Shown piece after piece: positions 11,001-36,215 of a DNA stretch of 64,000 nt. The translations under genes were made by a program, and so were the position numbers. The first letter of the stretch is position 1. Every line of letters starts with the position of its first letter. Origin of the DNA: a virus; the IMG/VR virus record IMGVR_UViG_3300037246_002669, positions 1 through 64,000 of that record, one strand, 5' to 3'. Under the pieces are notes generated by a model. That model searched no databases and was not told the DNA's origin. It was given only the letters and a program-made list of their open reading frames with translations.

Positions 11001-12014
11001 TTATTTTTCGGCGCGTTTTGTCAATAGCCATTCCACACAATCTTGAATTACTGGACCTACTTTAGCATCCCATGCATGTTTAACTTGCCGTGGAGCAAGT
11101 CCTCCTATTGCCAACTTTGCCCTTAATGCCGGCAGCCACCACAAAGTATCAATGCAGGAGGGTTGCCCTGTGGCATCCTCATCCGTAACATAATTGACTA
11201 TGTCCATGGGCATGTAAGCGGAAACAAGTAAAAACCACGTTGTTCGAAAAGTAACCAAGTCATTGCTAAACATACGAAACTTTGGCAGGTGGTTCCGTTC
11301 AAACATCCCCATGGCTGTTTTACCGGCAAAGGTATGCATGTCAAAGCAGTACCAGGGGATATCAACCGTGATTGGTTTCCGCCTTTCCCCCACTCTATTA
11401 ATCCATCGGGCAATGCCATCCTGAATATCCAGGGCAACTATCTTCGGGTCAATTCCTCGGAAAGCCGTCAAAAGCATTCCAGTCAAGCAAATGAACCGAT
11501 CCCCAAGCATACCGCCCTTGAAAACTCGCTCCTTCATTAGGTCCAGGGCAGCCAATTCGTACTCTGATGGATCGAATATAGATAGAGCATAGTCATATAC
11601 GGAGTTGGCCACGGAAGAGGGCTCACCGTCCCCCACCTCCTCCATGATGTGCCGGGCAGCTTCCAGTTCAGGGTGGTTGTTGCAGAAAGAACTTGAGGGT
11701 TCCCTCATCATAAAGTAAAGTCCATGAGTGTCTTTACTTTTTGTTGCCACCACCAGTTTGTAGATGAACTTCCTCAAATCATCATCTGATCGCATTCCGG
11801 GAGGGGTTTTCATAAACTCGGCATACTCACCTATCATATGCCATGCCTCTTCGACAACAAGAGTAACCATCCTCCACTCCAGCCACGACTTTTGTTTGTA
11901 ATCGGAAAATAACATATCCAGCGCCGTTTTAGCCAGATCCAGATCGCCCCGCCTGATAGCTTTTTGGATGGCCGACCGGGAACCATACATCATATCATCA
12001 TTGCATAACCTCAT
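11001..12014 (-). CDS. MgsA/RarA C-terminal-like domain protein without ATPase
   Basis: SAIQKAIRRGDLDLA and PWYCFDMHTxxG motifs; no Walker A. Confidence 0.55.
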   Translation of the reverse strand: MRLCNDDMMYGSRSAIQKAIRRGDLDLAKTALDMLFSDYKQKSWLEWRMVTLVVEEAWHMIGEYAEFMKTPPGMRSDDDLRKFIYKLVVATKSKDTHGLYFMMREPSSSFCNNHPELEAARHIMEEVGDGEPSSVANSVYDYALSIFDPSEYELAALDLMKERVFKGGMLGDRFICLTGMLLTAFRGIDPKIVALDIQDGIARWINRVGERRKPITVDIPWYCFDMHTFAGKTAMGMFERNHLPKFRMFSNDLVTFRTTWFLLVSAYMPMDIVNYVTDEDATGQPSCIDTLWWLPALRAKLAIGGLAPRQVKHAWDAKVGPVIQDCVEWLLTKRAEK

Positions 12015-12066
12015 TTCAAACTCATCTCCTTTTGCAATAAATTTCAAATCCCGACTTGATATACCA

Positions 12067-12095
12067 GTTCTAATATATGGTCAATTTATTGTCAA
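12067..12095 (-). promoter_or_regulatory. sigma70-type promoter (TTGACA-17-TAGAAC)
   Basis: Exact -35 with 17-bp spacer; palindrome variant 12031-12048 just downstream. Confidence 0.55.
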
Positions 12096-12118
12096 ACTTA
12101 ATAAGATAAAAAGAGCAC

Positions 12119-12151
12119 AAAAAAGGTGCCGCCCATGATAGACAGCACCTT
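12119..12151 (-). terminator. Intrinsic terminator
   Basis: AAGGTGCTGTC...GGCGGCACCTT followed by U-run, after the 12167 gene. Confidence 0.75.
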
Positions 12152-12166
12152 GCCTCGTGCCGGAAC

Positions 12167-13189
12167 TTACCCTTTGATTCCGAGAAGATCGTCGATTGAT
12201 TCTGACTTCTTCGATGCGGCTTTGTCGGGGGACTTCGCTGTTACCTTTCCCTTTGTCCGGGGAGGAACGGTCTTTTTCGCAGCAGTTCCCTTTTTCGCGG
12301 GCGGGGACTTCTTTGCCCCAGGGGACTTCTTTTTCGCGGGCGTGGACTTCTTTGTGGCATCCTTTGCGGCAGCAGTCTTTTCCTTTGCCAGGGACTCCTC
12401 CGCTTTGGCCTTCATGACCTCTGCGGATGACTCATCCCCCTCATCTTCGGAAGGGGACACGGCCAACTTCACCCCGTAGATTTTTTCGAGGAAGGCGATC
12501 TGGTTTTCCAGGGTCACTGTTTCCATATCGGTGCCGGAAGTCTGCATCCACTCCTGGGCAATGTACACGAGCGCGTTGACATCGTTCTCCGTGTCGAGTA
12601 CTTTTTTGGCAGTATTGATGGCTTCGGTCATGATGCTGCCTTCGTCGGAGTTCATGGTGAGTTTCATCACGACCGGGAGATTTTCCGGACCGCCAGACTC
12701 CCCGGTCTTTTTCTTTTTCCCAACATACATTTTCACTGCCTCGATCACCTCGTCGGTGGTCATGTCCTTGGCCTTATCCATCCACTGTTTGTGATTTGTC
12801 TTGTCGATGATGCGGGACAGTTCCTTCATCTTTGTCCAGCCCATCTTCTGAACTTCGTTGTCGTCAAGGTCCAACTCTTTCACGATGTCGGCGATATCCA
12901 CGAGATACATGGATTTGCGATAATGGATATCCAGTTCGTCTGACACGAATTCGGTAAACCCCTTGCGGCCCTTTTTATACCCCCACTGCTCGTGCATGTC
13001 GCTGTGGTACGCCTCGTACAGCAAATGGGCCAGTTTGATGTACCCCTGGGAGATATCCCTGTCAGCGGATTTGATCTCCTTGTAAACGACATCGTGGCGC
13101 TCATGGGTACTGATCTTGGTACCGGTGGCGGAAGTAGTTTTGGTTTTGGTACCGGTGGCGGAAGTAGTTTTGGTTCTCTTGGCAGACAT
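12167..13189 (-). CDS. Hypothetical protein with histone H1-like Lys/Ala/Pro tail
   Basis: 340 aa; KKSPGAKKSPPAKK tail; 30-bp coding duplication near the N-terminus; strong RBS. Confidence 0.75.
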   Translation of the reverse strand: MSAKRTKTTSATGTKTKTTSATGTKISTHERHDVVYKEIKSADRDISQGYIKLAHLLYEAYHSDMHEQWGYKKGRKGFTEFVSDELDIHYRKSMYLVDIADIVKELDLDDNEVQKMGWTKMKELSRIIDKTNHKQWMDKAKDMTTDEVIEAVKMYVGKKKKTGESGGPENLPVVMKLTMNSDEGSIMTEAINTAKKVLDTENDVNALVYIAQEWMQTSGTDMETVTLENQIAFLEKIYGVKLAVSPSEDEGDESSAEVMKAKAEESLAKEKTAAAKDATKKSTPAKKKSPGAKKSPPAKKGTAAKKTVPPRTKGKVTAKSPDKAASKKSESIDDLLGIKG

Positions 13190-19185: not shown

Positions 19186-19614
19186 TTATTCCTCCCAGTT
19201 GGATTCTAAATAATTACCGACATCGGTTAATGATAAAAATTTACCCTCACCATACAGTTGGAAAGCTTTTTTAATCAGGATATACTGCCCCTCGGTGAAC
19301 ATCCTCCAATTCCGTGAAGACCTATGCCGGGGTTCCTGAATGATACCCTTTTCACAATACTTCCGAACAGTGATGACACTTTTACCGATGGACTTAGCCA
19401 CATTTCCTACGGAAAACAGGAGATTGCCATTTTCATCGACAGAACGCTTACCGTAATACTTTGGCGTATCGGCAGTCCGGCGGTGGTAAGACTGGCGGGA
19501 CTCTCTGGATATACGTTCCCTATACTGTTCGTCTGTTTCCCTCCTTTTCTTTCTCCGTTTTGCAATTTGTCTTCCCCCGCCTCTTTTATACCACTCTTTG
19601 TAGTCCCAGGTCAT
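19186..19614 (-). CDS. MerR-type HTH DNA-binding protein
   Basis: SVGNVAKSIGKSVITVRKYCEKGII...NWRMF; ATGA overlap with the helicase stop. Confidence 0.8.
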   Translation of the reverse strand: MTWDYKEWYKRGGGRQIAKRRKKRRETDEQYRERISRESRQSYHRRTADTPKYYGKRSVDENGNLLFSVGNVAKSIGKSVITVRKYCEKGIIQEPRHRSSRNWRMFTEGQYILIKKAFQLYGEGKFLSLTDVGNYLESNWEE

Positions 19615-26012: not shown

Positions 26013-27040
26013 TGTTGATGATCCTCCATGTCCATGTAAAAAATCCGATCTTTTTTGCCAGAAGTCGGAAAGTCTTGATCACTGCACCCGTCCTCCTCCG
26101 TGAATTTGCAAGAAATTGCAAAATTATCGTTATTCTCGTTTTCGTCGAGCCATGCCTCTATGTCCATCCGGTAAGTATAGAACAACTCGAAACTAAATGA
26201 CTCGGTAAGCACCGCCGATTTCTGCAGCCGGGCGCAAGCGACGGAATGGTAAAACAAATGCCATTTGTGGATTGCCCTTTCCAGCAGACTCCTTGCCCCG
26301 TCAGTCCCTTTCTCCTTTAGGAAATTCTTGGCCATCCCGTTAACCTTACCGGTCCTGCGTTCCCTGTACGGCAACTCACAATCTTCACAAAAGCCGACGA
26401 TAACCCTAAACATATCCGGAACTGTTAACTCCCGTTTCCCCTGCAACTTATTAATCTTCTTCTTTCGGGAGGCAGCACTCATTGCAAGTGCCTTTCGCAT
26501 TTTGTCTTTAATCGTTTGGGTTGACATAGGTAGCGTGACTCCTTGCTCTTTTATCCCACTATGTTGGTAATGTTCGACAACGAGACTTAGCATAGGTAAA
26601 AAGTCCTTTGCAATAGAAGCCCCTCTCATCTCTGCAGTTTCCGGAGTGCAAAAATGTCGTTCGTACTCAAATAATTCAAGTACTACTTTGGAAATGCCGG
26701 GCAGGTTCACGGTAATTCGAGTTTCCTGATATCGGTTACCTTGACGTTTAATCAGAAGACCCGCCTTTACCATTCGGGAAACTGCCTTCTTCACAGTGTC
26801 AGGTTCATAATATTGAAATCTGGAATCTACTGTCATAATTTGCCCATCGTCCGTAAAGTACTGTCCAGGATCTCCAAATCGCATTCCGGTAGGAACATAA
26901 AATCCGGTACTTCCCCGATAGAGAGATAATCTGACCGCATGCTCCATTACCGCAAGTTCGAGTTGCCCTATCATGTAGGGCAGATAGTCCAACGCAAATC
27001 CGTGCCATAATTTGAACATAATCTCCGATGCGCCCGACAC
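26009..27040 (-). CDS. Putative replication initiator (wHTH)
   Basis: DTVKKAVSRMVKAGLLIK wHTH-like segment; first gene of the replication operon. Confidence 0.5.
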   Translation of the reverse strand: MSGASEIMFKLWHGFALDYLPYMIGQLELAVMEHAVRLSLYRGSTGFYVPTGMRFGDPGQYFTDDGQIMTVDSRFQYYEPDTVKKAVSRMVKAGLLIKRQGNRYQETRITVNLPGISKVVLELFEYERHFCTPETAEMRGASIAKDFLPMLSLVVEHYQHSGIKEQGVTLPMSTQTIKDKMRKALAMSAASRKKKINKLQGKRELTVPDMFRVIVGFCEDCELPYRERRTGKVNGMAKNFLKEKGTDGARSLLERAIHKWHLFYHSVACARLQKSAVLTESFSFELFYTYRMDIEAWLDENENNDNFAISCKFTEEDGCSDQDFPTSGKKDRIFYMDMEDHQQ

Positions 27041-29719: not shown

Positions 29720-29776
29720 GATCGTATCCTTTCAAAAAGGTTAGGGCTGTGGGCCATTTCCTGCCCTGTTAGATAT

Positions 29777-29805
29777 AAGATACCACCGGGTAAAATCATT
29801 GTCAA
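29777..29805 (-). promoter_or_regulatory. sigma70-type promoter (TTGACA-17-TATCTT, extended TG)
   Basis: Near-duplicate of the promoter at 30207-30235; palindrome at 29814 abuts the -35. Confidence 0.8.
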
Positions 29806-29830
29806 GGTATTCGTGCAATTTATTGCAAAT

Positions 29831-30158: not shown

Positions 30159-30206
30159 AGTGTCCTCCATTAAGGTTTGGGGTTGATTTCCTGCCGTGTT
30201 AAATAC

Positions 30207-30235
30207 AATCTAACACCGGTTAAAATCATTGTCAA
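30207..30235 (-). promoter_or_regulatory. sigma70-type promoter (TTGACA-17-TAGATT, extended TG)
   Basis: Consensus spacing; duplicate of the 29777 unit. Confidence 0.8.
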
Positions 30236-30305
30236 GGGAAAATATGCCGAATAATAAAAAAGGCCCTTATAATAAGAGATGCCCTTTTTGCAATAAATTG
30301 CAAAT

Positions 30306-30345: not shown

Positions 30346-30357
30346 AAAATACGGTAT

Positions 30358-30531
30358 CATCATGCCGCTTTTCCTGTTAACCTATAATTTTATAGCATCA
30401 CCTCCCCCTACCAAACAAATGAATGTTGTATATAAAAGATAATAGCATCATGCCCCGTTTCCTGTTGCCCTACAGTTTTATAGCATCACCTCCCTTAAAC
30501 AAACAAAATGAATGTTGTATATAAAAGATAA
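30358..30531 (-). ncRNA. Candidate ncRNA made of two ~88-nt tandem units
   Basis: Units 30358-30442 and 30446-30531, bracketed by promoter 30525-30553 and terminator 30306-30345; no minus-strand ORF. Confidence 0.5.
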
Positions 30532-30553
30532 CACCTTCCTTAATTATTATCAA
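30525..30553 (-). promoter_or_regulatory. sigma70-type promoter (TTGATA-17-TATCTT, extended TG)
   Basis: Same architecture as the other early promoters. Confidence 0.7.
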
Positions 30554-30560
30554 GGGACCA

Positions 30561-30710
30561 TTATTCATCCTTCCTGTCGGGACGATGCTCCTCGTCCCCC
30601 TTCCATGCAGTTTCTTCTATGTCAGGCAGTGAAGTTGAAAGGATACTTTCCATCCCAGGGTCGACTTTCCACATTTTCTCGGCGGTTTTCTTTTCCTCCG
30701 GAGCACTCAT
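30561..30710 (-). CDS. 49-aa acidic protein (below the ORF-track cutoff)
   Basis: AAGGAGG RBS, then MSAPEEKKTAEKMWKVDPGMESILSTSLPDIEETAWKGDEEHRPDRKDE-TAA. Confidence 0.6.
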   Translation of the reverse strand: MSAPEEKKTAEKMWKVDPGMESILSTSLPDIEETAWKGDEEHRPDRKDE

Positions 30711-30725
30711 AAAACTTCCCTCCTT

Positions 30726-30764
30726 TATCTTGGCTCTTTACCTAAAGAGCATGACAGTATCTCA
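30726..30764 (-). promoter_or_regulatory. Bacterial SECIS-like element
   Basis: UGA, 11 nt, then GCUCUUU-AGGU-AAAGAGC; possible lower stem UGUC/GAUA. Confidence 0.6.
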
Positions 30765-31700
30765 GCGGCAGTGGGGATGATATACCGGCAGTCGAAACTG
30801 TGCTTCCCTATCAGCAACGGACATGTTGTCAAGATCAGCATACCTGGGAAACGGGATCACTCCAACGGTTTGAGCAGTGGGATCAACTGCCGGATCTGCA
30901 AGGGCCTCCTGGTACCTGTTAATGGCCTCGTTGATCTCGTAGATCATACCGTCCAGCAATTCACACACTGGGCATACTCGCCTGTCATTCATTGCGACGA
31001 CTTGCACTGTCTTGACCCCATTTCGAATACCTTCTTGCAAGGCAGCATGATGCCAACAATAGCCAGACTGCACTTCACAGTTGGCCTCATGGTAAAAAGC
31101 AGGCATGAGCGGGATGCGGGCAATTCGGGCTTGGAGTGCCGCCTTATCCACTAATCGTTTGGTCGGATCGGTACGCACTATCTCTTCCAGCCGCGTTATC
31201 TCATTTGTCATAGCATCGGCGAGACCATATGCCATGATGGAATGCACGTTAACAGCATACGCCCTTGCTACGTAATCTTCCCATTCTTCCAGCGTAATTT
31301 TGGCTGCCTTGCCTGATTGCACACGAACCCGTTCTTGTGACTTAATAATCACTTTCCGAAACACACCGGCCATTTCATCCCGGGCCGCATATCCAATGGA
31401 TAATCCCATGTCGAAAGGAATAGCAGCCAATGCCCCAGCTATGATCTGTGAATTCACTGAGAAGGTGTCACCGTCAACAATGAATGCATTTTTCACAGCA
31501 TCCAGCGCCTCCCCTATGACTTCGTTCGTCAGCCTGGAGAGTAGCATGGACAGTAGAATGGCTTCCGGTCCCCAGAACTTAATAGCCGGGTTGTCTTTCA
31601 GTGCCTCTTCTGCCAGTTTGCCCACATTTCCTGATTTGATAGTGAACATGAGATCCACCGGGGTCATCTTGACAAATGACTCTTCAGTGGCTAATTTCAT
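30738..31700 (-). CDS. Head morphogenesis protein (SPP1 gp7/Mu gpF-like); in-frame UGA at 30762-30764, probably Sec
   Basis: Follows portal (ATGA overlap); DRRVCPVC..LDG..Y and P.YHPHCR-UGA-DTVMLFR-UAA. Ends at 30762 if UGA is a stop. Confidence 0.8.
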
Positions 31701-33448
31701 GCGACTACTCCCTTCTGTGCCGTTTCTTGCAGAAGGCACAAAGTTTTGTAAATGGTGATATCTTCAGAAGTGAATAGTGTACCTTCGGTTTTTTCGGCAG
31801 CATTCGAGGGAAGCGTGAGCAGACTGGAAGAGGTGGTGTCAATCTTTTCAGCAATTTCCTCAATTCCTTTCAGTCTTCCCTGTTTTGCCAGTTCAAGGAC
31901 AATAGGGAGGGGGTAACTTGCCCATTCCTGGTCGAAAATACTCATCTCCAGTCCGAATGCTTCGTTTGCCCTGGCAATGGCGTGGTTGACAGTGAAAGCC
32001 CCAACGTCAGCAAATGACTTTACACCGGCACTTGTATCTTTGGAGCCGACAATACGCGGTCCCATGGAGCAGAACTTCCAGTCGAGGACGTTAAACTCCT
32101 TAAAGACAAGATGAAGGTTCACCCATGTATCGAAGTCTTCACGTTCCGGAATGAACACCTGTTCTTCAGCAACGGTCTGCGCAGCCTGTGCAGTTGCATG
32201 GGTATAACCATCACTCTGCCCAAGGTAAAGATCAGGAAGACGAAAACGGTACCGGATAGTCTTGTAGGTGTCAGTTAAATACCGGTTAAACATGCCGTCT
32301 TCTGCCCTGTACTCCCCGAGGGGTTTGATCTCGATTTTAGCCTGTCCCTTGTCATCCAACCCGACACTTTCTACATTCGATTCAAGCAGGAGGACTTTGT
32401 TCCAGTTTTCCACTCCCCTCATGCCCAGGATCATGCTTTCCAGATCTTCTACGGATTCATCCGTAAGCGTTCCTCCACTTACAGTGATAACCATGGGAGG
32501 AATGCCTTGGGAATCGAAAAGATCGTAGTTAACATACTGTGCCTTTCTTCTGCCTTTGATATCCAAAACAGCGCCGATCCACCGGGGAACCCCATAAGAA
32601 CTTGTGCCGAAGTCCTCCCGGAAGTGTTTGATTTCTGAAGCAATGAAGAGTGGTTTCTTTTCTTTTTTGATGAGACTGATGTCTTCGGGAGTCAGGTACT
32701 TCCCTGTCATATAGTCCATCACGCGCGGATCTCCATATTCCTTGAACCAGCGCAGCGTTCTCCCGTCTGGGCCAATCTGTGCAAATTTCCGGAAGGATTT
32801 ACGCATCGTAATACGGACCACTTCCCCGTTACGACGAAGTGGAACTGTAACCTCTATGCGATTTCTGTCCACTCTGGTAAGCCGAATGTTCTTGAAAGGC
32901 AGGCGGAACATCATCTGTATTTCTCCAACTGCGTTCCTCACAATTTCCACAGTAGAGTTACCTGTGCGCTCCAGATCCTTACGCAGTTTTTTGCGCACGG
33001 CCTTAAAATCTTCAGCATCGTTCACCTGCCCAAAGAAGTCAGCAAGTTTAACCCTGTTCTTCTTAGCGTTAGGTTCCTCTGCCATTTTCGTGTCTTCTCC
33101 CAGATAATGGAAGGTGTGCCCGAATCCGTCAACATTTTGCACCATGGCATCAATGTTTGACTGCAGGGCATCAGACTCTTCGTAGATTTCGAACAAACGA
33201 CTGATATTGTAGGGAGGTTCAATCAAATTTTGAGCACCGTAGAAATCTACAAAAAGATCCTCGTCGAAATCTACAGCGCGGGAAAAAATTCCAGGAGTAC
33301 CGGCATCCCCGTATGCCTGTTCCAGTTTCTGAGCAATTCGCATTCGCATAGCTCTCAATTTTTGCCGGTTATCCTTACTGGTTGTGCCTGATATTTGCAC
33401 TCCCGGCACAGGAGGGGCGTTTTTGGTTTTTACTACTTTCTCTGGCAT
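31697..33448 (-). CDS. Portal protein (PBSX/XkdE-like)
   Basis: LIEPPY, D.E.TGN..VE..R, FKEYGDPR, YGVPRWIG, F...GIP. Confidence 0.9.
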   Translation of the reverse strand: MPEKVVKTKNAPPVPGVQISGTTSKDNRQKLRAMRMRIAQKLEQAYGDAGTPGIFSRAVDFDEDLFVDFYGAQNLIEPPYNISRLFEIYEESDALQSNIDAMVQNVDGFGHTFHYLGEDTKMAEEPNAKKNRVKLADFFGQVNDAEDFKAVRKKLRKDLERTGNSTVEIVRNAVGEIQMMFRLPFKNIRLTRVDRNRIEVTVPLRRNGEVVRITMRKSFRKFAQIGPDGRTLRWFKEYGDPRVMDYMTGKYLTPEDISLIKKEKKPLFIASEIKHFREDFGTSSYGVPRWIGAVLDIKGRRKAQYVNYDLFDSQGIPPMVITVSGGTLTDESVEDLESMILGMRGVENWNKVLLLESNVESVGLDDKGQAKIEIKPLGEYRAEDGMFNRYLTDTYKTIRYRFRLPDLYLGQSDGYTHATAQAAQTVAEEQVFIPEREDFDTWVNLHLVFKEFNVLDWKFCSMGPRIVGSKDTSAGVKSFADVGAFTVNHAIARANEAFGLEMSIFDQEWASYPLPIVLELAKQGRLKGIEEIAEKIDTTSSSLLTLPSNAAEKTEGTLFTSEDITIYKTLCLLQETAQKGVVA

Positions 33449-33527: not shown

Positions 33528-36215
33528 TTACAGGTCAAAGTCTTTCATATCTGCCAAATTGGGGCCTATGGAAACATCGGAAAGTAATGGGACACTCAAC
33601 TTTATTCCAAAATCCCTTTCGATGGGAGGATTCTCCAATGCGGTTTTGATAATTCTTGCGTAGTATGGTAGATCAGCATCGGCCTTGACTTCGTAAACAA
33701 GTTCATCATGAATGAACAGGATAGGACGGAAAATCTCAGGGTCATGGCCTTGTTTCCGAATTTCATTTGCTGCCATGAGTACCACATCCGACGAAGGGGC
33801 CTGTATAGGATGGTTAATCGCCTGCCGTTCAGCCTCCCCCCTTATGTAGGGATCATTTGAATTGATTTCAGGCAATCTACGTTTCCGTCCCAATGGAGAG
33901 ATAACATAACCATGACGCCTGCAAAAATCAATGGTATCCCGGTGAAAAGTTTTAATACGTTTGTAGTTCCCAAAGAATTTGGCGATCCATGACTCCGCTT
34001 GATCTATGGTAAGGGCAAGTCCGTACTCTTGTTTTGCATATTGCACAAAACCCTTTGCGCTCATTCCGAACACTAATCCAAAGTTAACCGGCTTGGCATT
34101 CTGCCGGGCCTTTTTCTTTTCCTTGTCATTCATATTATTCCACTTGGCACCACTTAGTACTTTGCCAGTAGCCACATGAATGTCCTCCCCGGACCGGAAT
34201 ACTTTAATCATGGCAGGATCGCGGGACTGGTGGGCAAGCCACCTCAACTCAGACTGGGATTCATCAGCAGCTAACAGAACGTATCCTGGTTTGGCGGCAA
34301 TAAGACTTCGGACAATTCGCGCGGAAGGGCCTCGCTTGGGTATGTTCATTAAATTTGGGTCCGATGAATTTATTCTCCCGGTAACTGCCATGCACATACC
34401 GTATCTGGTATGAATACGCCCATCTGCCTTGATCGCTTTTTTGAATCCCCGTAGGTAGCGACTCCACAAAGTATGGTACATTTTGAACAACTCAAGGTTT
34501 TCCAGGAATGTTCTTGCTTTGGGAGGCAAGCGCATATCCAGCAGTAACTTTCTAACATTCTTATCAACACTGGGTTCTTTGGCCTTAGTGCGTTTGATTA
34601 CTTTCAGCCCGTATCCCTCGTCGGAAAACAGAATATCCCGCACTAACGTATCCCTCGTGAACTTTATGCCTTTGGCCTGATGGACTTCTTTCTCCAGTAC
34701 CTCCCTGGGAATGCATCCTGAGCACTGTACAGCAGCATCCTCCATGAGTAAAGCAACTTCTTTGGTGGCAATGGGGAGTTGATCCTTATCCACATATGCG
34801 CCGATTTCCTCCATTTCGAAAAGGGTATGTAGCGTAGGCATGGCAAATGTCTTAAAATAGTGTAGTGCCTCGGTCTCGTTTCGTTCTTTGAGAAACCGCA
34901 TCATGTTATGATAAGCCTGAAAGGTCACATCGGTATCGGCGCACGCGTACTGGGTTCTCTCATCCAGGGGAACGGCTATCATGTCCCCCTTTTCGTACTT
35001 GGCCCCAAATTCGGAGTTATAGTTCCCTTTCATGGTCGTGAAACTTTTTTGCACCTGTTCCAGACTCGCCATCTTGTAGATATTTTCTTCTATCAAATGG
35101 GCAAGCACCTGCAACTCTGCCTCCCATCCCCTAATAGGAATACTGACTTTCGAAATTCGACGGAAGAGAGTCCGAAAAACATGATAATCGAATGCACCAT
35201 TGAGGAAGGACTTCTTTATATCCTCATTCAGGAGCAACTGTGCCAACTCCCTTACTTTTTGCGCGAAGTCGGGTGTCTGTCTTGCCCCGATTGTAACCTC
35301 CTCTTTCTTCCGTTTGCCTTTCTCGTTAATTGCCCACCGATCCTGTTGCCACTGGATCACACACTCGTCGGAGTTGGGATCACATTCTTCATAAAATGTG
35401 ATACTGTATCCGGTTCCGGTTTCGTAAGTCAGACTGTAACTGATCATGACATATTCGGGATTTGCCCAGTCGAGCCCCTGCCCCTCAGTATCCAGGCCGA
35501 TTAATTTCCCTTCGAGAAAATCAGCCCAGTCTTCTCCCATCGGGCGTTCACTGTCAGTTCGGACCATCCGTACTCCGGGTTTTGGTTTCTTTTTTGGACG
35601 GTGCATCTCCGCCAGCGAAGTTATCTCACGGTAGGATGAATTGGTTTCGATTACTGGCGGTTGAAAGTCATTCTCTATCAGTTCCGATAACATCCGGATG
35701 TCTTCAATCAACTGGGCTTCCATCGCCATGTTGCGCATAATGAAATTGGGGTGCAAGGTAGCGATCACCCAGCAGGCGAACTCCTCGTTCCAGAACCACT
35801 GCCCGCGATTTTTCTTAATGCCGGACTTTCTCATGATCTGCCTGAATGCGAAATCTCCTGCACACAAAATAACCTTGGGTTTCACTTGATAGATAACCGA
35901 TTCGATGTAATGGCGGCAACTACTCAGTGTAGCAGTGACTTCTTTCCCGGATAATGTCCTTTTGTCCATTACACACCTGGACGCGGTCACGATAAACATT
36001 TCTCGCCAGTTGATACCATGTTGCTGGAGACGACTTTTCATCATCTCCCCACTATCTCCCTGTAAATGACCATCCCTTCCATGACTGCCACGCCCAAAAA
36101 AAGCGGGGGAATCGTCCACCAGTAATATATCGGCAGTGCGACTCCCCATGTAATACTTCTTCTGTACAGCTCCATGAAGGGGGCAATCGTGAAATTTACA
36201 CTCTCTACTCATCAC
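33528..36215 (-). CDS. polA: Family A DNA polymerase with N-terminal UDG-like and 3'-5' exonuclease domains
   Basis: LHP (UDG4-like), GLDTE, NGAFD, YACAD, TGRINSSDPNL, DESQSELR, K..NFG, HDE. Confidence 0.93.
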   Translation of the reverse strand: MMSRECKFHDCPLHGAVQKKYYMGSRTADILLVDDSPAFFGRGSHGRDGHLQGDSGEMMKSRLQQHGINWREMFIVTASRCVMDKRTLSGKEVTATLSSCRHYIESVIYQVKPKVILCAGDFAFRQIMRKSGIKKNRGQWFWNEEFACWVIATLHPNFIMRNMAMEAQLIEDIRMLSELIENDFQPPVIETNSSYREITSLAEMHRPKKKPKPGVRMVRTDSERPMGEDWADFLEGKLIGLDTEGQGLDWANPEYVMISYSLTYETGTGYSITFYEECDPNSDECVIQWQQDRWAINEKGKRKKEEVTIGARQTPDFAQKVRELAQLLLNEDIKKSFLNGAFDYHVFRTLFRRISKVSIPIRGWEAELQVLAHLIEENIYKMASLEQVQKSFTTMKGNYNSEFGAKYEKGDMIAVPLDERTQYACADTDVTFQAYHNMMRFLKERNETEALHYFKTFAMPTLHTLFEMEEIGAYVDKDQLPIATKEVALLMEDAAVQCSGCIPREVLEKEVHQAKGIKFTRDTLVRDILFSDEGYGLKVIKRTKAKEPSVDKNVRKLLLDMRLPPKARTFLENLELFKMYHTLWSRYLRGFKKAIKADGRIHTRYGMCMAVTGRINSSDPNLMNIPKRGPSARIVRSLIAAKPGYVLLAADESQSELRWLAHQSRDPAMIKVFRSGEDIHVATGKVLSGAKWNNMNDKEKKKARQNAKPVNFGLVFGMSAKGFVQYAKQEYGLALTIDQAESWIAKFFGNYKRIKTFHRDTIDFCRRHGYVISPLGRKRRLPEINSNDPYIRGEAERQAINHPIQAPSSDVVLMAANEIRKQGHDPEIFRPILFIHDELVYEVKADADLPYYARIIKTALENPPIERDFGIKLSVPLLSDVSIGPNLADMKDFDL

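What the first reader, a model, noticed from the sequence alone, without database searches (positions are those of the whole stretch)
30726..30790. Candidate phage selenoprotein: UGA at the conserved Cys of the MuF/gp7 head protein plus a SECIS-like hairpin
Seen: the ORF reads ...VCPVC...P.YHPHCR-UGA-DTVMLFR-UAA. Known: this family ends in HPxCR(C/S) plus a short beta strand (e.g. CRCSTVP), so UGA occupies the Cys position and the read-through residues fit the strand. Exactly 11 nt after the UGA begins a perfect hairpin GCUCUUU-AGGU-AAAGAGC with a possible lower stem (UGUC/GAUA). That spacing and the GU-containing apical loop match the E. coli fdhF SECIS layout. It lacks a U-tract, so it is not a terminator. 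UGA acts as a normal stop elsewhere (ATGA overlaps at 19611, 26009, 31697, 54315, 59946), so this is not a code change. Inference: the phage borrows host SelABC to put selenocysteine into a virion protein, implying a Sec-using, probably anaerobic host and possibly Se-dependent control of head assembly.
Basis: partly seen in the sequence, partly recalled or inferred. Interest (0 to 1): 0.85.

Follow-up and report, generated by a model that had tools for sequence, protein, structure and literature searches.

The report
Probable selenocysteine codon in phage MuF
A 95-kb marine-sediment phage writes a UGA "stop" exactly where its only MuF head protein normally has a cysteine and follows it with a selenocysteine-insertion-type RNA hairpin, so the codon is probably, though not provably, read as selenocysteine, which I found reported for no virus of bacteria.

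Summary
The minus-strand MuF gene reads ...VCPVC...YHPHCR-UGA-DTVMLFR-UAA, and a perfect 7-bp hairpin starts 11 nt after the UGA. Its two closest homologs (87% and 81% identical) have Cys at that codon and keep the 7-residue tail. A separate assembly of the reads (about 14x) also shows TGA. The phage uses the standard code, has one MuF gene and no integrase.

In this clade the TGA is a singleton, so by the field's own rule it is only a "candidate". DNA of the Cys homologs, the host and minor read variants could not be reached.

My own IMG/VR scans found one independent case. L037, a distantly related 93-kb phage, has UGA at the other Cys of the same C-R-C motif. Its unrelated 6-bp hairpin puts the 4-nt loop (AGUU) at the same nt 22-25 as here (AGGU) and in E. 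coli fdhF (GGUC). That geometry occurs at 0.15% of TGA triplets, about 2% of gene ends and 0 of 28 control MuF slots.

Best reading: selenocysteine, about 0.6. Main rival: a tolerated nonsense allele.

The scan has reported UGA at the MuF cysteine on other phage DNA before. I used those notes as leads only. Eight apparent "UGA at Cys" hits are code-25 (UGA=Gly) phages.

The parts
30765..31700 (-). MuF/gp7-type minor head protein gene up to the in-frame UGA (312 codons from the ATG). Its ATG overlaps the portal gene's TGA (ATGA).
   Evidence: Pfam Phage_Mu_F (26.1 bits alone, 29.8 with neighbours in frame), PHROG 115 minor head protein. It is the only MuF gene in the genome.
30762..30764 (-). 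In-frame UGA at the second Cys of the H-x-x-C-R-C motif (residue 313): the candidate Sec codon.
   Evidence: homologs P0002 and P0003 have Cys here; a separate Logan assembly at about 14x also has TGA.
30738..30761 (-). Read-through tail DTVMLFR (7 codons) plus the natural UAA stop (30738-30740).
   Evidence: the tail is identical in P0002 and one swap away in P0003; a tail is present in every family member; residues 314-317 are modelled as a beta strand.
30733..30750 (-). SECIS-like hairpin: 7-bp perfect stem with 4-nt loop AGGU at nt 22-25 counted from the U of UGA. The natural stop begins at the last loop base.
   Evidence: The layout is compared with E. coli fdhF as described in PMC8659212 and with the 16-37 nt rule in PMC10778597.
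30726..30756 (-). Extended structure: a 4-bp lower stem (30753-30756 pairs with 30726-30729) enclosing the hairpin.
   Evidence: MFE -9.2 kcal/mol; z-score only -0.84.
30561..30724 (-). Downstream AAGGAGG ribosome-binding site (30718-30724) and a 49-aa acidic ORF (30561-30710). It shows the hairpin sits at a gene junction.
   Evidence: No PHROG match.
31697..33448 (-). Portal protein gene immediately upstream, translationally coupled to MuF.
   Evidence: PHROG 12 portal, E 1.7e-25. It is 32% identical to the portal beside L037's MuF.

Best explanation
The UGA at residue 313 of the phage's single MuF/gp7-type minor head protein is read as selenocysteine in a share of translation events. The host's SelB with Sec-tRNA(Sec) would be recruited by the small hairpin whose apical loop lies 18 nt after the UGA. 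Ribosomes that are not recoded stop there and release a 312-aa product. Recoded ribosomes add Sec plus DTVMLFR and stop at the natural UAA, which lies in the hairpin loop. Because Sec is only 8 codons from the end, the SECIS straddles the stop codon and runs into the intergenic spacer. Shown here: the UGA/Cys pairing, the conserved tail, the hairpin and its register, the standard code, the single gene copy, and the same layout in a second phage. Inferred: that SelB binds this hairpin, that the host has the Sec machinery, and that Sec rather than another residue is inserted.
For: (1) Both close homologs have Cys at the UGA position, and the tail is DTVMLFR or DVTMLFR. (2) Among 150 family representatives, only the window's protein ends at 'CR'; all others continue with a short strand, and the model puts residues 314-317 in a beta strand. 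(3) TGA is the consensus in a separate assembly of the run, with 0 differences over 1.5 kb at depth about 14. (4) The code is standard (TGA ends 27 of 121 ORFs), there is one MuF gene, no integrase or resolvase, and 91% coding density. A dead essential-type gene is therefore unlikely. (5) The hairpin begins 11 nt after the UGA, as in the minimal fdhF SECIS. Its 4-nt loop is at nt 22-25 with G23, 18 nt from the UGA, within the published 16-37 nt range, and is a small apical loop containing G (PMC8659212, PMC10778597, PMC1088965). (6) A bacterial SECIS placed after the stop codon is known to work for C-terminal Sec (PMC10778597, citing Arner 1999). (7) Independent case: L037 was found by protein motif alone. 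It has PPFHFR-UGA-RCAVDVS-stop in a 331-codon MuF ORF of a standard-code 93.5-kb phage (portal 32% identical). Its unrelated 6-bp stem puts loop AGUU at nt 22-25. That strict geometry occurs at 0.15% of TGA triplets, and the looser form at about 2% of gene ends. In each genome the MuF site is the only such TGA that ends a long ORF. (8) 0 of 28 slots in 14 MuF genes without a UGA in the motif have a Watson-Crick stem of 6 bp or more there. (9) L037's tail uses minor codons where the hairpin needs them (AGU 9%, CGU 9%). (10) The sample is marine sediment.
Against: In this clade the TGA is a singleton (1 of 3 sequences). By the rule in PMC1088965 that makes it a 'candidate', not a selenoprotein. 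No other standard-code MuF in IMG/VR has TGA at this same Cys in four motif scans. The hairpin is weak (-6.5 kcal/mol; the region's z-score is not significant). It has U17 paired rather than bulged and G rather than U at position 24, so it fails the E. coli SelB determinants. There is no Rfam match. The phage has no tRNA-Sec or SelB, and the host is unknown. This residue is H, D, G, S or T in other family members, so it is replaceable. C243, C246, H308 and C311 already form an invariant set. Sec at what looks like a structural metal site would be unusual. In both phages the natural stop is also in the same register as the hairpin, so a function tied to the gene end is not excluded. Contigs cannot show minor alleles.
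Confidence: 0.6

Rival explanations
1. Tolerated or recent nonsense allele. A single TGY-to-TGA change truncated MuF by 8 residues, the tail still looks conserved because the change is recent, and the hairpin is an unrelated gene-junction structure (mRNA stability or processing, or coupling to the next ORF).
For: Only 1 of 3 clade members has TGA. One base change is enough. The residue can be S, T, G, H or D in relatives. C243, C246, H308 and C311 are the invariant set. 12 of 121 gene ends in this phage have a perfect hairpin of 7 bp or more. With 87% identity, 7 unchanged tail residues are not surprising. The hairpin is weak and its z-score is not significant.
Against: No other family member lacks the terminal strand. 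The phage has one MuF gene, looks lytic and is otherwise intact, and TGA is the read consensus. A second unrelated lineage (L037) has TGA in the same C-R-C motif, there at the invariant Cys, with a hairpin in the identical register, p about 0.0015 to 0.02. 0 of 28 control slots have such a hairpin. This hairpin belongs neither to the phage's TTGCAA-box class nor to its GC-rich terminator class.
Confidence: 0.25
2. Read-through without selenocysteine. The UGA is decoded at low level by a near-cognate tRNA (Trp or Cys), or by a SelB-delivered Cys-charged tRNA(Sec)-like tRNA, giving a minority full-length product.
For: UGA is the leakiest stop codon, and phage Q-beta uses UGA read-through for a minor virion protein (established knowledge). 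A minor head protein is needed in few copies. Conservation of the tail fits any read-through.
Against: The UGA is followed by G, which is not a known leaky context (my own knowledge). Trp at a Cys/His/Asp-type position is unlikely to work. Outside SECIS, no bacterial mechanism is known by which a small downstream hairpin promotes read-through. The phage has no tRNA of its own.
Confidence: 0.1
3. Artefact or code change: a sequencing or assembly error, or a host that reads UGA as a sense codon (codes 4 or 25).
For: Eight IMG/VR MuF genes really do have TGA at this position because they use code 25, so the pattern can arise that way.
Against: Two assemblies agree at about 14x. In this genome TGA ends 27 of 121 ORFs, including the 1289-, 583-, 469- and 446-aa genes, and the 312 codons upstream hold no other TGA.
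Confidence: 0.03

Closest known systems
Bacterial selenoprotein genes with a SelB-bound SECIS just 3' of the UGA (prototype E. coli fdhF; minimal 17-nt upper stem-loop 11 nt after the UGA)
   Same: In-frame UGA paired with Cys in homologs. The hairpin starts at nt 15. The 4-nt apical loop lies at nt 22-25 with G23, 18 nt from the UGA and within the 16-37 nt range.
   Different: U17 is not bulged and position 24 is G rather than U. The stem is A/U-rich and weak. The element straddles the natural stop codon and runs into the intergenic spacer. The gene belongs to a phage and encodes a virion assembly protein, not an oxidoreductase.
Recombinant mammalian thioredoxin reductase made in E. coli with a bacterial SECIS placed after the stop codon (Arner et al. 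1999, as cited in PMC10778597)
   Same: Sec lies close to the C-terminus, and the SECIS lies partly or wholly outside the reading frame at the required distance from the UGA.
   Different: That is an engineered construct with the fdhF SECIS. Here the arrangement would be natural, and the hairpin sequence is unrelated.
MuF / SPP1 gp7 minor head proteins (Pfam PF04233)
   Same: Position directly after the portal gene, CxxC...HxxCRC motif, short terminal strand, and PHROG 'minor head protein' matches.
   Different: The second Cys of the C-R-C motif is written as UGA. This subfamily is distant from cultured-phage members (no tblastn hit in GenBank phages).
Poxvirus selenoproteins (molluscum contagiosum GPx1-like, fowlpox GPx4-like; PMC8310308)
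   Same: A virus relying on host Sec machinery.
   Different: Those are captured host peroxidases in eukaryotic viruses with eukaryotic SECIS elements. This is a phage structural or assembly protein with a bacterial-type hairpin.
L037 (IMGVR_UViG_3300022220_000003), MuF gene 11244-12263
   Same: UGA within the same C-R-C motif, 7 codons before the natural stop, a stem with a 4-nt A-G-N-U loop at nt 22-25, followed by the next gene's ribosome-binding site.
   Different: The UGA replaces the first (invariant) Cys. The stem sequence is unrelated (GACGUC). The genome has 59% GC. The portal is only 32% identical.

Membership tests
Bacterial-type selenoprotein gene (UGA plus SECIS) | In-frame UGA aligned with Cys in at least two homologs | tested here: met
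   P0002 and P0003 have Cys at column 313. 100 of about 135 wider relatives have Cys there.
Bacterial-type selenoprotein gene (UGA plus SECIS) | Coding sequence conserved on both sides of the UGA | tested here: met
   The tail DTVMLFR is identical or nearly identical in the homologs and is a family-wide strand. It is only 7 codons long, so statistical power is low.
Bacterial-type selenoprotein gene (UGA plus SECIS) | Stem-loop just downstream, apical loop 16-37 nt from the UGA, small loop containing G | tested here: met
   7-bp stem, loop AGGU 18 nt after the UGA. Criteria taken from PMC10778597 and PMC1088965.
Bacterial-type selenoprotein gene (UGA plus SECIS) | E. coli SelB determinants: bulged U17, G23 and U24 | tested here: not met
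   G23 is present, but U17 is base-paired and position 24 is G (against PMC8659212). This excludes an E. coli-type SECIS, not SECIS elements of other bacteria, which vary (PMC12013277).
Bacterial-type selenoprotein gene (UGA plus SECIS) | At least two different sequences keeping the in-frame TGA (rule of PMC1088965) | tested here: inconclusive
   At this same codon there are none in the clade or in four IMG/VR motif scans. At the neighbouring Cys of the same motif there is one independent phage, L037.
Bacterial-type selenoprotein gene (UGA plus SECIS) | Hairpin present in UGA forms and absent from Cys forms | tested here: inconclusive
   0 of 28 slots in 14 distant MuF genes without a UGA in the motif have it.
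Bacterial-type selenoprotein gene (UGA plus SECIS) | Host encodes selA, selB, selC and selD | not testable with these tools
   The host is unknown. The phage itself has no tRNA-Sec, no SelB wing domain and no tRNA at all.
Bacterial-type selenoprotein gene (UGA plus SECIS) | Selenium shown in the protein (75Se labelling or mass spectrometry) | not testable with these tools
   This needs an experiment.
Phage_Mu_F / SPP1 gp7 minor head protein (PF04233) | Profile match and position next to the portal gene | tested here: met
   Pfam 26.1 bits alone (cut-off 29.6), 29.8 with neighbours in frame. PF04233 is precomputed for P0001. PHROG 115 and 241 match. The portal lies directly upstream.
Phage_Mu_F / SPP1 gp7 minor head protein (PF04233) | CxxC ... 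HxxCR(C/S) motif followed by a short strand | tested here: met
   VCPVC ... HPHCR-UGA-DTVM strand.
Genome-wide stop-codon reassignment (codes 4 or 25) | TGA used as a sense codon throughout the genes and not as a stop | tested here: not met
   27 of 121 ORFs end in TGA, and there is a single in-frame TGA in MuF. Compare the true code-25 MuF genes.
Intrinsic (Rho-independent) terminator | G+C-rich hairpin followed by a U-tract | tested here: not met
   The stem is A/U-rich and is followed by CAAGAUAAAGGAGG and the next ORF.

The most novel reading that the evidence does not exclude
MuF head proteins form a natural family of phage virion selenoproteins. Different phage lineages have independently rewritten one or the other cysteine of the C-x-C motif as UGA and evolved a minimal SECIS that straddles the gene's stop codon. 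Production of full-length MuF, and hence of fully infective particles, would then depend on the host's Sec machinery and selenium supply.
Probability: 0.5. Interest if true: 0.85.

Novelty: new variant of a known kind. Interest (0 to 1): 0.72.

Why it matters
Selenocysteine insertion is known in bacteria, archaea, eukaryotes and two poxviruses. My searches found no paper describing it for a bacteriophage, and the 2026 review of the prokaryotic selenoproteome does not mention phages. If this is real, three things follow. Phages can exploit the host's SelB pathway, so gene callers systematically truncate such genes. Sec can sit in a structural or assembly protein packed into a virion rather than in an oxidoreductase. 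A very small SECIS can also work across a stop codon in nature. It would give a host-range marker (a Sec-using host) and a possible link between selenium availability and phage infectivity in sediments. A short reporter construct makes all of this directly testable.

Tried and rejected
- The search for related loci found no relatives with the MuF alignment in viral, metagenome and genome collections, with the portal in the viral collection, or with the epimerase in genomes as a host clue.
- A clade-specific C-terminal DNA pattern in the metagenome collection gave 0 hits.
- Searches for shorter proteins and with the family profile added no clade members.
- IMG/VR scans for TGA at this same Cys returned only chance matches and eight code-25 phages.
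- Rfam at a permissive threshold gave no SECIS or other credible hit.
- PDB searches by sequence and by Foldseek gave no informative match.
- Only one run holds the DNA, probably the source sample, and it is kept as contigs, so minor alleles and expression could not be assessed.
- Cultured portal relatives (Rhizobium, Rhodobacter and Pseudomonas phages) lack the full motif or lack MuF beside the portal, so they served only as partial controls.
- The odd tRNA-like gene in L037's phage is not a UCA tRNA-Sec.

Full report
**1. The observation.** The gene lies on the minus strand. From the ATG at 31700, which overlaps the portal gene's TGA as ATGA, it runs 312 codons to ...VCPVC...LPVYHPHCR. Then come TGA (30764-30762), seven sense codons DTVMLFR and TAA (30740-30738). 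Counting the U of UGA as nt 1, a perfect 7-bp stem occupies nt 15-21 and 26-32 (window 30750-30733), with loop A22 G23 G24 U25. A 4-bp lower stem encloses it. An AAGGAGG ribosome-binding site and a 49-aa ORF follow, with no U-tract.

**2. What the gene is.** It matches Pfam Phage_Mu_F (26.1 bits alone, 29.8 with neighbours in frame) and PHROG minor-head and head-morphogenesis families. It sits directly after the portal gene. The window belongs to a 94.9-kb IMG/VR virus record that is 96% complete and has 47% GC. TGA ends 27 of 121 ORFs, including the largest ones, so the code is standard. The record has no tRNA, no tRNA-Sec, no SelB domain, no integrase or resolvase, and only this one MuF gene.

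**3. The Cys/UGA pair.** Only two close homologs exist among 5.8 billion protein clusters. They are 87% and 81% identical and both are 320 aa, exactly 312 + 8. They end HPRCRC-DTVMLFR and HPRCRC-DVTMLFR. Among 150 more distant representatives, the residue after HxxCR is:

| Residue | Members |
|---|---|
| C | 100 |
| H | 14 |
| D | 9 |
| G | 5 |

Cultured relatives have S or T at this position. Every complete motif is followed by a short hydrophobic tail, and only the window's own protein stops at 'CR'. In a 33-sequence alignment C243, C246, H308 and C311 are invariant and C313 is nearly so. An AlphaFold model (mean pLDDT 79.5) puts residues 314-317 in a beta strand. No solved structure helped.

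**4. Is the TGA real?** One public run holds this DNA. It is a marine-sediment metagenome and probably the source sample. Logan's separate assembly of it gives a 12.4-kb contig at word depth about 14 with no difference over 1.5 kb. An assembler slip is therefore excluded. Minor alleles cannot be seen in contigs.

**5. Is the hairpin more than chance?** The strict geometry means a 4-nt loop at nt 22-25 closed by at least 6 Watson-Crick pairs.

| Measure | Result |
|---|---|
| TGA triplets in this genome with the strict geometry | 5 of 3380 (0.15%) |
| Of those, ending a long ORF | only the MuF site |
| Gene ends with a perfect hairpin of 7 bp or more | 12 of 121 |
| Gene ends with a hairpin placed like this relative to the natural stop | about 2% |

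Half of the gene-end hairpins are TTGCAA-N4-TTGCAA boxes and most of the rest are GC-rich terminators. This hairpin belongs to neither class. It is weak (-6.5 kcal/mol alone) and the region's fold z-score is not significant. On its own it would not be convincing.

**6. Comparison with known SECIS rules.** The E. coli fdhF minimal element is a 17-nt stem-loop at nt 15-31, 11 nt after the UGA, with a bulged U17 and with G23 and U24 in the loop (PMC8659212). More generally, the apical loop lies 16-37 nt from the UGA (PMC10778597) and is small and contains G (PMC1088965). The window's hairpin matches in start position, loop position and G23. It lacks the bulge and has G24. Bacterial SECIS elements are known to vary and to be hard to model (PMC12013277). 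A bacterial SECIS placed after the stop codon works when Sec is near the C-terminus (PMC10778597).

**7. Looking for recurrence.** The field's rule calls a single TGA sequence only a 'candidate' (PMC1088965). The clade could not be enlarged. Notes from earlier agents of this scan claim UGA at the MuF cysteine in several other phage genomes. I treated these as leads and ran my own IMG/VR motif scans.

- **Same Cys.** Four patterns gave only chance hits plus eight low-GC phages that read TGA as glycine throughout (code 25). These must not be counted as Sec cases.
- **Neighbouring, invariant Cys.** The pattern PPFHxx-TGA-RC gave one real case, L037, from a 93,466-bp phage with 59% GC.

L037 has a 331-codon MuF ORF with no other in-frame stop, ending PPFHFR-UGA-RCAVDVS-stop. 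In that genome TGA is the commonest ordinary stop (50 of 117 ORFs) and there is only one MuF gene. Its portal is 32% identical to the window's, and its MuF aligns only over the last 97 residues at 28%. L037 was found by protein motif alone, yet it carries an unrelated 6-bp stem (GACGUC/GACGUC) starting 12 nt after the UGA, with loop A22 G23 U24 U25. That is the same loop position as in the window and in fdhF, here with both G23 and U24.

In L037's genome the strict geometry occurs at 4 of 2643 TGA triplets. The loose form occurs at 1.4% of TGA triplets and at 3 of 125 gene ends. The tail uses minor codons where the stem and loop need them. In 14 MuF genes without a UGA in the motif (7 from cultured phages, 7 code-25), none of 28 slots has a Watson-Crick stem of 6 bp or more.

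**8. Weighing.** The blind recovery of the same layout in a second, distant lineage is the strongest evidence that UGA and hairpin belong together. With the Cys pairing, the conserved and structurally needed tail, the single gene copy and the intact lytic-looking genome, it makes selenocysteine the best explanation. I put it at about 0.6.

- **Caveat 1.** The TGA is a singleton in this clade.
- **Caveat 2.** The E. coli SelB determinants are not met.
- **Caveat 3.** In both phages the natural stop is also 8 codons after the UGA, so hairpin and natural stop share a register too.
- **Caveat 4.** The residue is replaceable in the family.
- **Caveat 5.** The host is unknown.
- **Caveat 6.** I could not read the DNA of the Cys homologs.

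| Explanation | Weight |
|---|---|
| Selenocysteine | about 0.6 |
| Tolerated nonsense allele with an unrelated junction hairpin | about 0.25 |
| Read-through without Sec | about 0.1 |
| Artefact or code change | about 0.03 |

**9. Novelty.** My literature searches found viral selenoproteins only in poxviruses (PMC8310308) and nothing for phages. The scan itself has reported this on other phage DNA. This window would be one more member, with the UGA at the second Cys, and it adds the code-25 caveat. I class it as a new variant of a known kind: bacterial Sec recoding used by a phage for a virion protein, with a SECIS that straddles the stop codon.

Noticed in passing
L004, L009, L011, L022, L023, L027, L028, L029 (IMG/VR contigs): Eight low-GC (26-34%) phage contigs read TGA as glycine throughout (code 25). 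Their MuF gene has HPNCR-TGA at the very position studied here, so they can be mistaken for 'UGA at the MuF cysteine'.
   Followed up: yes
Proteins P0040, P0052, P0084, P0089, P0101, P0020, P0038, P0085, P0048: MuF homologs carry inteins inserted exactly inside the metal motif: after HxxC (Cys or Ser nucleophile followed by ..GTEVYT..), and in one case inside the CxxC.
   Followed up: partly
G001 (record of L037) 26299-26368 = L049:1502-1571: The only tRNA-like gene of L037's phage scores higher on the Rfam tRNA-Sec model (26.8 bits, below the cut-off of 47) than on the general tRNA model. It has an 8-bp acceptor stem, a 5-bp T stem, no variable arm and an abnormal anticodon loop (UUUCGCAA; ARAGORN gives no anticodon). 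It is not UCA. Unexplained.
   Followed up: partly
G001 minus strand, TGA at 64634: A TGA with 129 open codons upstream and 95 after it, followed by a 6-bp hairpin in the same strict register (loop UUGA). It could be a spurious antisense ORF in a GC-rich genome.
   Followed up: no
window about 30355-30535 and about 29741-29810 / 30175-30240: Just downstream of the MuF operon lie two tandem copies of an ~85-bp repeat and two copies of a promoter-like cassette. Each cassette is near a GC-rich terminator and a TTGCAA box.
   Followed up: no
window 30287, 37024, 44325, 59500, 63163 regions (and 77201, 82312 beyond the window): TTGCAA-N4-TTGCAA palindromes make up half of the perfect gene-end hairpins in this phage. 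This agrees with earlier first-reader notes of an operator-like box.
   Followed up: partly
window 33528-36215 (minus strand): The family A DNA polymerase carries an N-terminal uracil-DNA-glycosylase-superfamily domain ahead of the 3'-5' exonuclease and polymerase domains.
   Followed up: no
L050, L051, L054-L059 (cultured Rhizobium, Aeromonas, Vibrio phages): Cultured relatives of the L037-type MuF have a reduced motif, with a single Cys in the first knuckle and HxxCR[S/T] at the end. The full four-Cys/His cluster is therefore not universal in the family.
   Followed up: partly
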